Assembly (NCBI RefSeq): GCF_002854065.1
Contig: NZ_CP024147.1
DNA: 64,000 nucleotides
Strand: one strand, 5' to 3'
From: Escherichia coli
GTDB lineage: Bacteria; Pseudomonadota; Gammaproteobacteria; Enterobacterales; Enterobacteriaceae
Numbering within the stretch: position 1 is the stretch's first letter; each line of letters begins with the position of its first letter. Made by a program: the position numbers. Positions 22,701 to 25,700 of the stretch are shown piece after piece.

Positions 22701-25700
22701 TCAGCACATATTGCTGGAAGGCAGCATCGGCGCTCAGGTTGTATTTGAAGATCCCGATACAGACACCGCCGATCAGGTTGATCGCCAGAATCATCATCCC
22801 GGCGATGGCGTCCCCGCGCACAAACTTTGATGCCCCGTCCATCGCGCCGTAGAAATCGGCCTCGCTGGCGACATCTTTACGCCGGGTTTGCGCCTGCGCC
22901 TGGTTGATCAACCCGGCGTTAAGGTCGGCGTCAATCGCCATCTGTTTGCCGGGCATCGCGTCCAGGGTAAAGCGGGCAGAAACCTCGGAAATACGCTCGG
23001 CCCCTTTGGTGACGACGATAAAGTTGATTGTCAACAGCGTCAGTCAATCCGAGCGTGAAAGCATTATCGCCGCGCTGCACGGGCAGTCGATTTTTAACGG
23101 TGGCGGGCTGTCGCCGTTAAATAACATCAGCCCGACTCTTCCGCCGAAACCTGCTACCGTGGCGGTGCCGGAAGAGACGGAGAAAAAAGCGCGCGACGTC
23201 AACGAGAAAACGGCGCTGCTGAAGAAGAAATCCGCCACCGAGCTTGGCGAGCTGGCAACCAGTATCAACACCATCGCCCGCGATGCGCATATGGAAGCAA
23301 ATCTGGAGATGGAGATTGTCCCGCAGGGATTACGCGTACTGATTAAAGACGACCAGAACCGCAATATGTTTGAACGCGGCAGCGCGCAGATTATGCCGTT
23401 CTTTAAAACGCTGCTGGTGGAGCTCGCGCCAGTGTTCGACTCGCTCGATAACAAAATTATTATTACCGGGCATACCGATGCGATGGCCTACAAAAACAAT
23501 ATCTACAACAACTGGAACCTTTCGGGTGACCGCGCGCTTTCGGCTCGTCGGGTGCTGGAAGAGGCCGGAATGCCGGAAGATAAAGTGATGCAGGTGAGCG
23601 CGATGGCGGACCAGATGCTGCTGGATGCCAAAAATCCGCAAAGCGCGGGCAATAGGCGTATTGAAATTATGGTGCTGACCAAAAGTGCGTCCGATACGCT
23701 GTATCAATACTTTGGTCAGCATGGGGATAAAGTGGTGCAGCCGCTGGTGCAAAAGCTGGATAAGCAGCAGGTGCTTTCGCAGCGAACGCGCTAAATGCTG
23801 AATCTTTACGCATTTCTCAAACCCTGAAATCACTGTATACTTTACCAGTGTTGAGAGGTGAGTAATGCGTAAAATCATTCATGTGGATATGGACTGCTTT
23901 TTCGCCGCAGTGGAGATGCGCGACAATCCCGCCCTGCGCGATATCCCTATTGCTATTGGCGGCAGCCGCGAACGTCGGGGGGTGATCAGCACCGCCAATT
24001 ATCCCGCGCGTAAATTTGGCGTACGCAGCGCTATGCCGACAGGGATGGCGCTCAAATTATGCCCACATCTCACCTTGCTTCCGGGGCGCTTTGACGCCTA
24101 CAAAGAAGCCTCAAATCATATCCGTGAAATCTTCTCGCGCTACACCTCTCGCATTGAACCGTCGTCACTGGATGAGGCTTATCTCGATGTCTCCGACAGC
24201 GTCCATTGCCACGGTTCTGCGACCCTCATCGCCCAGGAAATCCGCCAGACGATTTTCAGCGAGCTGCAACTGACGGCGTCTGCGGGCGTGGCACCAGTAA
24301 AGTTTCTCGCCAAAATCGCCTCCGACATGAATAAACCCAACGGCCAGTTTGTGATTACGCCGGCAGAAGTTCCGGCATTTTTACAAACCTTACCACTGGC
24401 AAAAATCCCCGGCGTCGGCAAAGTCTCGGCGGCAAAACTGGAAGCGATGGGGCTGCGGACCTGCGGTGATGTACAAAAGTGTGATCTGGTGACGTTGCTT
24501 AAACGCTTTGGCAAATTTGGCCGTATTTTATGGGAGCGTAGTCAGGGCATTGACGAGCGCGACGTTAACAGCGAACGGTTGCGAAAATCCGTCGGCGTGG
24601 AACGCACGATGGCGGAAGATATTCATCACTGGTCTGAATGTGAAGCGATTATCGAGCGGCTGTATCCGGAACTTGAACGCCGTCTGGCAAAGGTAAAACC
24701 TGATTTACTGATTGCTCGCCAGGGGGTGAAATTAAAGTTCGACGATTTTCAGCAAACCACCCAGGAGCACGTCTGGCCGCGGCTGAATAAAGCTGACTTA
24801 ATCGCCACCGCGCGTAAAACCTGGGATGAACGCCGCGGCGGGCGAGGTGTGCGTCTGGTGGGGCTGCACGTGACGTTGCTTGACCCGCAAATGGAAAGAC
24901 AACTGGTGTTGGGATTATGATGTATACTATTATGTCTATTCTGGTGTGCATTATTATGAGGGGATCACTGTATGCATCGAATTCTCGCTGAAAAATCGGT
25001 CAATATCACTGAGTTACGTAAAAACCCAGCTAAATACTTTATTGATCAACCGGTTGCGGTTCTTTCTAATAATCGCCCCGCAGGATATCTCTTAAGTGCC
25101 AGCGCATTCGAAGCGTTAATGGACATGCTTGCTGAACAAGAGGAGAAAAAGCCCATAAAGGCGCGCTTCCGTCCAAGTGCTGCAAGATTAGAGGAAATTA
25201 CACGCCGCGCTGAACAATATCTTAATGATATGACGGATGATGATTTCAATGACTTTAAGGAATAAGGATGCGGGTATTCAAAACAAAACTTATTCGCCTG
25301 CAACTTACAGCAGAGGAACTTGATGCGTTAACGGTGGATTTTATTTCCTATAAGCGTGACGGTGTTTTGCCAGATATATTTGGTCGCGATGCACTCTACG
25401 ACGACTCGTTTACCTGGCCATTAATCAAATTTGAGCGAGTTGCTCATATTCATCTGGCAAATGTGAATAATCCATTTCCGCCACAGTTGCGCCAATTCAG
25501 CAGAACGAATGACGAATCGCATTTGGTATATTGTCAGGGTGCGTTTGATGAGCAAGCATGGTTGCTCATTGCCATTCTGAAACCTGAACCTCATAAACTG
25601 GCTCGAGATAACAACCAAATGCATAAAATTGGGAAAATGGCAGAAGCGTTTCGCATGCGTTTTTGAATTTATATTATGAATAACATACAAATAAGAAACT

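What the first reader, a model, noticed from the sequence alone, without database searches (positions are those of the whole stretch)
23020..23050. Flag-2 lateral-flagella deletion scar between lfhA' and lafU'
A 5'-truncated FlhA homologue on the minus strand directly abuts a 5'-truncated MotB/OmpA-like gene on the plus strand. This is the arrangement left when the roughly 35-kb Flag-2 cluster is deleted, as described for K-12 and many other E. coli. It is a known feature, not new.
Basis: established knowledge. Interest (0 to 1): 0.25.

Follow-up and report, generated by a model that had tools for sequence, protein, structure and literature searches.

The report
Flag-2 lateral-flagella deletion scar
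This is the well-known scar left in most E. coli when the ~35-kb second (lateral) flagellar gene cluster was lost; the same base-for-base junction also turns up in at least nine other enterobacterial taxa, on flanks that look like recently working genes, which a one-off accident does not easily explain.

Summary
Window 21325-23028 (minus strand) holds the last 567 codons of lfhA. Window 23026-23794 (plus strand) holds the last 255 codons of lafU. They meet in a 3-bp GAT (23026-23028).

In the Flag-2-positive strain LD93-1 the two arms lie 36,406 bp apart, at opposite ends of the cluster. K-12 has the identical junction, and 4071 of 5426 complete E. coli genomes carry the contiguous scar. The feature at these coordinates is already known (Ren 2005, via De Maayer 2020).

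Three further results were not in the papers I could read:
- The junction is nucleotide-identical in at least 10 taxa, including Kluyvera, Citrobacter, Atlantibacter and Ewingella (Yersiniaceae). Six of these, Escherichia aside, were seen to have full-length forms in the same or a closely related species.
- The remnant arms look like recently functional genes. lfhA' is open over 567 codons in 7 of 8 taxa, with dN/dS of 0.03-0.2 at dS of 0.9 or more. Only synonymous changes occur next to the junction among the six Enterobacteriaceae scar alleles compared.
- The endpoints share no repeat beyond the 2-3 bp.

A single old neutral relic does not fit these results. I favour a repeatedly generated deletion at a hot spot whose mechanism is unknown, but this is not proven.

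The parts
21325..23028 (-). lfhA' remnant: last 567 codons plus stop of the Flag-2 FlhA homologue. It begins right after TM4 (I|NFIVVTKGAERISEV...). The frame is fully open in this strain.
   Evidence: ORF list. Pfam FHIPEP positions 101-656/657, E=1e-188. Aligns to LD93-1 lfhA at 95.3% identity without gaps. No stop codons.
23026..23028 (.). Deletion junction: a 3-bp GAT shared by both parental sites. It is bounded by T at 23025 (lfhA-type; lafU has G) and T at 23029 (lafU-type; lfhA has G).
   Evidence: Three-way alignment with the intact sites of LD93-1. The intact L and R sites of three E. coli strains. Identical motif in K-12.
23026..23794 (+). lafU' remnant: codons 53-307 of the MotB-like stator protein (linker plus OmpA-like domain). 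The TM helix and plug are deleted.
   Evidence: Pfam OmpA only. Alignment A1 with full-length LafU proteins that carry PF13677. Aligns to LD93-1 lafU-dinB at 96.7%.
23009..23794 (+). The 261-aa 'LafU' CDS as PGAP calls it in the nearest record. It has a GTG start, and its first 6 codons are read from the antisense of lfhA (VTTIKL|IVNS).
   Evidence: Annotation of CUWW06, locus 9710-10495 = window 23009-23794. Sequence.
23029..23064 (-). Antisense-lafU stretch that in K-12 supplies the ATG and 12 N-terminal codons (MLSRSDLLTLLT) of the 579-aa 'FhiA' ORF. Here a lineage-private A>C at 23045 makes a TGA codon (23046-23044), leaving a TTG start at 23034.
   Evidence: Translation of window and K-12. 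Variable-site table shows 23045 C is private to the window.
23833..23848 (+). dinB SOS (LexA) box CTGTATACTTTACCAG with promoter-like hexamers, between the lafU' stop and dinB (23865-24920). It shows the right arm is in its native place.
   Evidence: Sequence. Promoter scan 23814-23841. dinB Pfam IMS domains. The LexA-box consensus is from established knowledge.
20696..21193 (+). rayT (yafM), flanked by REP-like repeats (20516-20610, 21205-21309). This is the left-hand neighbour of lfhA', as in K-12.
   Evidence: Annotation of CUWW06 and K-12. REP-like hits to Flag-2 intergenic regions.

Best explanation
The feature is the canonical Flag-2 deletion scar. A deletion of about 35-39 kb removed lfhA codons 1-130, roughly 40 lateral-flagellar genes, and lafU codons 1-52. 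It joined the two outward-facing gene ends head to head inside a 3-bp GAT. This much is shown directly. In E. coli the remnants behave as non-functional fragments (inferred). Neither has its own promoter region. The nearest relative carries a nonsense codon in lfhA'. This lineage has a stop in the K-12-type N-terminal extension of the lfhA' ORF.

How the state arises is inference. The scar is young relative to the divergence of its arms, and it sits on many haplotypes that Flag-2-positive strains also carry. So it is made or installed repeatedly. Within a species, the likely route is homologous replacement of the cluster by an existing scar allele, or the reverse. Between taxa, the likely route is independent recurrence of the same deletion at a hot spot fixed by the conserved coding sequences at the two sites. 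No enzyme or structure responsible for this was identified.

My probabilities: the identity of the scar 0.97; repeated generation at a hot spot about 0.55.
For: Identity of the scar:
- map it. It is contiguous in 4071 of 5426 complete E. coli genomes. 1247 genomes carry the Flag-2-interior halves of the endpoints.

Decay in Escherichia:
- CUWW06 has TGG>TAG at lfhA' codon 190.
- The E. albertii type strain has a 22-bp deletion.
- E. coli ORF variants exist with duplications, in-frame deletions and frameshifts.
- Singleton changes in K-12 are 5 synonymous to 4 nonsynonymous, and in S88 2 to 4.

Youth of the scar and spread across haplotypes:
- Nine scar-bearing E. coli strains have no indel or stop in 1698 nt. 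Scar-versus-scar dN/dS is 0.028, against 0.021 among Flag-2-positive strains.
- KN93 (scar) is identical to TUM11352 (Flag-2-positive) over 2866 nt on the left and 2668 nt on the right, apart from the T/G position inside the junction microhomology.
- A SNP 11 nt from the junction (23017) segregates in both states.

Recurrence in other taxa:
- The junction is nucleotide-identical in E. albertii, Kluyvera, C. amalonaticus, two Atlantibacter species, Ewingella, H11S18 and two unnamed taxa.
- The arms are native to each taxon and are matched by full-length forms from the same or a related species.
- Next to the junction there are 7-22 synonymous and 0 nonsynonymous differences among six Enterobacteriaceae scar alleles.
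- Cross-taxon dN/dS is 0.03-0.2 with dS of 0.9 or more.
Against: - No mechanism for a hot spot was found. The 200 nt either side of the left site against the same span at the right site aligns no better than shuffled sequence.
- Microhomology is only GAT, or AT in Atlantibacter and C. amalonaticus.
- The 25-bp near-palindrome at the E. coli lafU site is not conserved in Kluyvera or Ewingella.
- No recombinase is annotated in the cluster.
- No reciprocal circle or tandem junction occurs in 5426 genomes.
- The ST131 literature reads the state change there as a Flag-2 insertion, not a loss (PMC5369007).
- I sampled few strains per taxon and built no formal phylogeny.
Confidence: 0.9

Rival explanations
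1. One ancient deletion. Every carrier, in E. coli and in the other genera, inherits the same junction by descent. The scar then spread by vertical descent and homologous recombination. The arms are kept native-looking by gene conversion from Flag-2-positive strains of the same species.
For: An identical junction is what descent predicts. Recombination is frequent at this locus in E. coli: the arms are mosaic and the ST131 papers call the region recombinant. The scar allele is common (75%), so it is an abundant donor. Within E. coli alone this view is quite plausible.
Against: It requires a presence/absence polymorphism kept in more than 10 lineages of two families since before dS saturated. 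Alternatively it requires recombination between arms only about 70-82% identical. Sites within 60-120 nt of the junction can rarely be converted, because a conversion tract would have to end between them and the junction. Yet they show only synonymous differences between genera. If 75% of E. coli were old scars, scar-versus-scar dN/dS should approach 1; it is 0.028.
Confidence: 0.2
2. The remnants are not pseudogenes. The truncated LfhA' (TM5-8 plus the cytoplasmic domain) and LafU' (linker plus OmpA-like domain) are kept by purifying selection for some new role. That role also selects for this exact junction.
For: lfhA' is open over all 567 codons in 7 of 8 taxa and in 9 of 9 E. coli strains. 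A. hermannii versus Atlantibacter sp. gives dS 1.25 with dN/dS 0.026. The A. hermannii scar allele shows no excess of private amino-acid changes. ATG or GTG starts exist for both ORFs. A weak sigma-70-like site lies upstream of lfhA'.
Against: Disrupted alleles are easy to find: CUWW06 W190*, the E. albertii 22-bp deletion, and E. coli indel and frameshift variants. K-12 and S88 show relaxed constraint. Start codons differ between taxa. LafU' has no signal peptide or TM helix to reach the periplasm, and LfhA' lacks half of its membrane domain (sequence). Every scar-bearing taxon examined for this also has Flag-2-positive relatives that can explain the clean arms.
Confidence: 0.1
3. The scar is the ancestral state. 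Flag-2 is a mobile block that integrates into it and reconstitutes lfhA and lafU from halves.
For: The ST131 literature describes a Flag-2 'insertion'. The arms are identical in both states within ST131.
Against: Divergence inside the cluster is continuous with that of the arms: about 95% for LD93-1 versus TUM11352, with no step at the junction. The same holds for E. coli versus C. werkmanii. No integrase is present. Half-genes cannot be an ancestral functional state.
Confidence: 0.03

Closest known systems
E. coli K-12 fhiA-mbhA (lfhA'-lafU', b0229-b0230) Flag-2 scar (Ren et al. 2005, J Bacteriol 187:1430; known to me and via PMC6993521 and PMC3032704; the paper itself was not readable here)
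   Same: Same two fragments, same orientation, same junction string, and same neighbours rayT and dinB.
   Different: This lineage is about 4% diverged from K-12 across the locus. It carries a private stop in the N-terminal extension of the FhiA ORF. It has IS1 and IS3-family insertions in yafP nearby.
'En bloc deletion between lfhA and lafU' across Enterobacterales (De Maayer et al. 2020, PMC6993521)
   Same: That paper reports truncated lfhA/lafU pairs in 531 of 4028 strains, mostly in taxa that also hold complete flag-2 loci, and in 76 of 100 E. coli. My counts agree: 75% scar and 23% Flag-2-positive.
   Different: In the text I could read, it attributes the deletion to direct repeats (citing Ren 2005). 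It does not compare junctions base by base or test constraint on the remnants. Here the repeats amount to 2-3 bp and the junction is nucleotide-identical in 10 taxa. It also lists Atlantibacter and Ewingella as lacking flag-2, whereas full-length forms now exist in the databases.
Programmed excision elements that interrupt genes (the B. subtilis skin element in sigK, the Anabaena nifD element). These are named from my own knowledge, as an analogy only.
   Same: A large block is removed with base precision between two fixed sites, repeatedly.
   Different: Those elements encode their own site-specific recombinase, have recognisable att sites, and restore a gene on excision. Here no recombinase or att-like repeat was found, and the event destroys two genes. 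The resemblance is in outcome only; membership is not claimed.
ETT2 type III secretion cluster attrition in E. coli (Ren et al. 2004; from my own knowledge)
   Same: An ancestral secretion or motility cluster that is widely inactivated in E. coli.
   Different: As I recall it, ETT2 decays through many different deletions and point mutations in different lineages. That is what ordinary attrition looks like. Flag-2 loss overwhelmingly uses one junction.

Membership tests
Flag-2 (lfhA'-lafU') deletion scar | The left fragment is the 3' part of the Flag-2 flhA homologue and lacks its 5' end | tested here: met
   FHIPEP profile positions 101-656/657. Gap-free alignment to the last 567 codons of LD93-1 lfhA; the first 130 codons are absent.
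Flag-2 (lfhA'-lafU') deletion scar | The right fragment is the 3' part of lafU (the MotB-like stator) and lacks its TM/plug region | tested here: met
   OmpA domain only. Full-length LafU proteins carry PF13677 plus PF00691, and in them the sequence ...FMTLW precedes IVNSVS.
Flag-2 (lfhA'-lafU') deletion scar | The two fragments map to opposite ends of an intact cluster of about 35 kb in a Flag-2-positive genome | tested here: met
   L003 positions 3332 and 39738, which are 36,406 bp apart, with a full flagellar gene set between them.
Flag-2 (lfhA'-lafU') deletion scar | Same junction and chromosomal context as K-12 (between rayT/yafL and dinB) | tested here: met
   Identical 19-nt junction string at K-12 position 250053. 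Neighbouring genes match.
Neutral pseudogene relic of a single ancient event | The remnants accumulate stops, frameshifts and nonsynonymous changes at the neutral rate, and carriers share a scar-linked haplotype | tested here: not met
   dN/dS is 0.028 among scar alleles. Singleton changes on scar tips are 48 synonymous to 12 nonsynonymous. The frame is open in 7 of 8 taxa. There is no scar-specific haplotype. Only synonymous changes occur next to the junction across genera. Some alleles do decay.
Site-specific recombination / excisable element | Conserved att-like repeats or dyad-symmetric sites at both ends, and a recombinase gene | tested here: not met
   No similarity beyond 2-3 bp. The palindromes at the endpoints are explained by the coding sequence or are not conserved. 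No recombinase appears in three annotated clusters. No reciprocal junction was found.
Site-specific recombination / excisable element | De novo, enzyme-dependent formation of the junction | not testable with these tools
   This needs culture-based PCR or deep sequencing in Flag-2-positive strains and mutants.

The most novel reading that the evidence does not exclude
Loss of Flag-2 is not random attrition. It is a base-precise deletion that has arisen independently many times, in at least two families of Enterobacterales (Enterobacteriaceae and Yersiniaceae) and repeatedly within species. It always occurs between lfhA codons 130/131 and lafU codon 53. That implies a conserved hot spot or a dedicated, irreversible off-switch for the lateral flagellar system, with enzymology that is not yet known.
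Probability: 0.5. Interest if true: 0.75.

Novelty: already known. Interest (0 to 1): 0.45.

Why it matters
For this window, the result only confirms a textbook K-12 feature and fixes its coordinates. The wider comparison matters more. The scar is usually cited as a fossil of one accidental deletion. Here the same junction recurs in distant genera, on arms that still look like working genes. If that holds up, the lfhA'-lafU' pair marks a recurrent, precise genome rearrangement that removes a costly 35-kb motility system. That would bear on three questions:
- How accessory systems are switched off.
- How the ST131 'Flag-2 insertion' should be read.
- Whether presence or absence of Flag-2 can be used as a phylogenetic character.

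Tried and rejected
- **Extended direct repeats at the endpoints.** The 200 nt either side of the left site against the same span at the right site gave a local alignment score of 11, against 10.6 +/- 1.3 for shuffles. Rejected.
- **Palindromes.** The lfhA site abuts GATGATCATC, which contains a GATC immediately 3' of the junction. This follows from the Met-Ile-Ile codons. The 25-bp near-palindrome centred on the junction at the E. coli lafU site is not kept in Kluyvera or Ewingella. Not adopted as a mechanism.
- **XerCD/dif-like or invertase-like sites.** I compared these by eye against consensus sequences recalled from memory and saw no convincing match. This was not a formal test.
- **A plasmid vehicle for the scar.** The plasmid hits are K-12 F' plasmids and chromosomes mislabelled as plasmids. 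Rejected.
- **Reciprocal circle or tandem junction.** Found in 0 of 5426 genomes.
- **A scar-only genus as a test of selection.** Atlantibacter looked scar-only in De Maayer's table, but full-length LfhA from A. hermannii and A. subterranea exists. The test lost its force.
- **The genome-contig scan** mostly returned generic FlhA. Only C. werkmanii (intact cluster) and E. albertii (scar) were useful.
- **Ren et al. 2005** could not be read.
- **The ST131 papers** gave no junction-level data.

Full report
**1. What is at the coordinates**

The window is E. coli chromosome, covering the fadE-gmhA-yafJ-dpaA-yafQ/dinJ-yafL-rayT-[lfhA'|lafU']-dinB-yafNOP-pepD-gpt region. The nearest record is strain CUWW06 (99.9-100% identical, but with different IS content).

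On the minus strand an ORF runs 21325..23034 (569 aa). It matches Pfam FHIPEP from profile position 101 to 656 of 657, so it is an FlhA-family protein without its N-terminus. On the plus strand, the frame entering at 23030 and ending at 23794 carries an OmpA-like domain only. dinB follows at 23865-24920, behind its LexA box at 23833-23848.

**2. Mapping the deletion**

I took a Flag-2-positive genome, LD93-1, and fetched its whole locus as L003. It has the full flagellar gene set between lfhA and lafU. BLAST gives these correspondences:
- Window 21321-23037 matches L003 1625-3341, which is lfhA (95.3% identity).
- Window 23023-25000 matches L003 39733-41710, which is lafU-dinB (96.7% identity).

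The three-way alignment shows:
- The lfhA-side match runs through 23028.
- The lafU-side match starts at 23026.
- T at 23025 is of the lfhA type.
- T at 23029 is of the lafU type.

The crossover is therefore inside GAT at 23026-23028. The intact sites read …AAAGTTGAT|GATCATCAGG… in lfhA (antisense) and …GCTGTGGAT|TGTCAACAGC… in lafU.

lfhA has lost codons 1-130. The remnant starts right after TM4, at I|NFIVVTKG. lafU has lost codons 1-52 and part of codon 53. The remnant starts right after its TM helix, where …FMTLW|IVNS becomes …KL|IVNS. The missing block is 36,406 bp in LD93-1 (including an ISEc52), 39,473 bp in TUM11352 and 35,027 bp in FDN-11.

**3. Agreement with what is known**

K-12 MG1655 has the identical junction string, with lfhA (b0229) and lafU (b0230) annotated as pseudogenes in the same context.
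- The contiguous 2.5-kb scar is present in 4071 of 5426 complete E. coli genomes.
- An 80-nt junction probe finds 3871 of them.
- 1247 genomes carry the Flag-2-interior halves of the endpoints.

This matches De Maayer 2020, which reports 76 of 100 E. coli with truncated copies and 24% of Escherichia with flag-2.

**4. The remnants do not look like an old relic**

I compared the 1698-nt lfhA' arm in 9 scar-bearing and 7 Flag-2-positive E. coli strains.
- None has an indel or a stop codon.
- dN/dS is 0.028 for scar versus scar (dS 0.22), against 0.021 among Flag-2-positive strains.
- Scar alleles do not form a clade. K-12 groups with 30COLEC (Flag-2-positive) and SX23 with FDN-11 and LD93-1.
- KN93 (the ST131 scar haplotype, shared with SE15 and more than 60 other records) is identical to TUM11352 (Flag-2-positive) over 2866 nt to the left and 2668 nt to the right of the junction, apart from the T/G position inside the junction microhomology.
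- A SNP 11 nt from the junction (23017 G/A) segregates in both states.
- Divergence inside the cluster (about 95% for LD93-1 versus TUM11352) is continuous with that of the arms.

Singleton changes on scar tips are 48 synonymous to 12 nonsynonymous. Relaxation shows only in K-12 (5:4) and S88 (2:4). The window itself has 10:1 in lfhA' and 8:4 in lafU'.

Real decay does exist:
- CUWW06 differs from the window by one base in this 2.5 kb, and that base makes lfhA' codon 190 a stop.
- The window lineage has a private TGA in the 12-codon extension that gives K-12 its 579-aa 'FhiA' ORF.
- Database ORFs from E. coli show duplications, in-frame deletions and frameshifts.

So in E. coli the fragments are not protected from decay, but most scars are young relative to the age of their arms.

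**5. The same junction in other taxa**

The E. albertii type strain has the identical junction, plus a 22-bp deletion in lfhA'.

I then ran a protein search with the ORF that spans the junction. It found truncated LafU proteins without the MotB plug in Citrobacter, Kluyvera, Atlantibacter, 'Enterobacteriaceae bacterium H11S18' and Ewingella. All begin …TT(I/M/T)KL|I(V)…, which is antisense lfhA fused to LafU at the same residue.

At the DNA level the junction is at the same nucleotides in 10 taxa, each with its own synonymous variants on both sides:

| Taxon | Junction |
|---|---|
| E. coli | …GATAAAGTTGAT\|TGTCAACAGC |
| Kluyvera | …GATGAAGTTGAT\|TGTTAACAGC |
| C. amalonaticus | …GATAAAGTTAAT\|TGTGAATAGC |
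| Atlantibacter | …GATGAAGTTAAT\|CGTCAACAGC |
| Ewingella | …CACGAAGTTGAT\|TGTCAGCTCA |

Two unnamed taxa read …KL|IMGAVT and …KL|IINAVT.

For Ewingella I recovered both intact sites from a Flag-2-positive contig of the same species. The scar is exactly left site plus right site, with arms 95-97% identical and alignments that stop at the junction.

Apart from Escherichia, full-length forms from the same or a closely related species were found for six of these taxa:
- K. ascorbata.
- C. gillenii, where the scar is 98.9% identical to the full form.
- A. subterranea, with 3 amino-acid differences in 561.
- A. hermannii.
- Ewingella.
- The taxon of protein cluster P0204.

lfhA' is open over all 567 codons in 7 of 8 taxa. 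Scar-versus-scar dN/dS between taxa is 0.03-0.2 with dS of 0.9 or more. For the two Atlantibacter species it is 0.026 at dS 1.25. In the 20 and 40 codons next to the junction, six Enterobacteriaceae scar alleles differ by 7-22 synonymous changes and no nonsynonymous change.

**6. What this means**

A single neutral relic inherited by descent would have saturated with all kinds of change next to the junction. Conversion tracts can rarely reach those sites. It would also require a presence/absence polymorphism to survive in many lineages of two families. I consider that unlikely (0.2), although within E. coli alone, spread of an existing scar allele by homologous replacement is probably common.

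Selection on functional remnants (0.1) would explain the clean frames. It conflicts with the disrupted alleles, with start codons that differ between taxa, and with proteins that lack the parts they need for membrane insertion or export.

The reading I favour (about 0.55) is repeated, independent formation of the same deletion at a hot spot. I could not find the mechanism:
- The endpoints share only 2-3 bp.
- Palindromes at the sites are coding by-products or are not conserved.
- No recombinase is annotated in the cluster.
- No reciprocal junction exists in 5426 genomes.
- Plasmid copies are laboratory F' plasmids or mislabelled chromosomes.

The literature I could read notes that the lfhA-lafU deletion is pervasive and ascribes it to direct repeats. 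The ST131 work treats the change there as a Flag-2 insertion. None of these papers compares junctions or constraint.

**7. Verdict**

The finding is real, correctly interpreted and already known, and by itself it deserves a low score. I raise the interest moderately because the cross-taxon comparison suggests the 'scar' marks a recurrent, base-precise rearrangement, and simple PCR experiments could test this directly.

Limits: few strains per taxon, no formal trees, Nei-Gojobori estimates at saturated dS, and Ren 2005 unread.

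Noticed in passing
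window 25934-27963: yafP is interrupted by an IS1 with a 9-bp target duplication (K-12 positions 9959-9967 of L004 are present on both sides). That IS1 is itself split at 26569-27824 by a 1,256-bp IS3-family element (ISEc31-like). CUWW06 has only the plain IS1 here.
   Followed up: partly
window 42197-42971, 47786-48558, 49624-50391: Three more IS1 copies lie in the window. CUWW06 also has an IS1 between yafQ and dinJ that the window lacks. The two near-identical strains therefore differ mainly in IS content.
   Followed up: no
window 22460: This is the only base that differs from CUWW06 in 21300-23800. The window has TGG (Trp) at lfhA' codon 190 and CUWW06 has TAG. This explains PGAP's 'internal stop' note and shows that the remnant is decaying in the closest relative.
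   Followed up: yes
window 23045: A lineage-private A>C change. It turns Leu into TGA in the antisense-lafU extension MLSRSD*LTLLT of the K-12-type 579-aa FhiA ORF, and gives K6Q in the lafU' frame. It is the only variable site within about 70 nt to the right of the junction among the 12 E. coli strains compared.
   Followed up: yes
window 20516-20610 and 21205-21309 (around rayT, 20696-21193): REP-like repeats flank rayT. Copies of them occur in several intergenic regions inside the Flag-2 cluster of LD93-1 (L003 about 8040-8120, 15130-15210, 23236-23275, 25269-25304, 28420-28505, 34213-34289). In LD93-1, FDN-11 and SX23 a hicAB toxin-antitoxin pair occupies the rayT slot instead.
   Followed up: partly
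L020 (KN93) vs L018 (TUM11352); also H71-H130: Scar-bearing and Flag-2-positive strains with the ST131 haplotype have arms without a single difference over about 2.7 kb on each side, apart from the T/G position inside the junction microhomology. Published ST131 phylogenies call this a Flag-2 insertion in subclade B2. A precise loss in clades A and B1 would fit the sequence equally well.
   Followed up: partly
L003 3333-3342 (intact lfhA site of Flag-2-positive E. coli); also L022 and L112: The deleted side of the lfhA endpoint starts with GATC, inside the palindrome (G/A)ATGATCATC. This is conserved in E. coli, C. werkmanii and Ewingella, and it is encoded by Met-Ile-Ile. The ambiguity zone of the junction ends exactly 5' of that GATC. 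It may be a coincidence.
   Followed up: partly
L107, L109, L110 vs L102, L104, L105: In Ewingella and two unnamed taxa the NlpC/P60 gene lies downstream of lafU. In Escherichia, Citrobacter, Kluyvera and Atlantibacter it (yafL) lies beyond the 3' end of lfhA. The peptidase travels with the locus but at different ends.
   Followed up: no
L020, L021, L018, L019 vs window 24972-25666: yafN-yafO lies between dinB and yafP in the window, K-12 and LD93-1. It is absent in KN93, TUM11352, SX23 and FDN-11, where dinB overlaps yafP directly.
   Followed up: no
plasmid records H136-H142: K-12 F' plasmids of about 214-242 kb carry the lfhA'-lafU'-dinB segment. Several multi-megabase 'plasmid' records in PLSDB are evidently chromosomes.
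   Followed up: no
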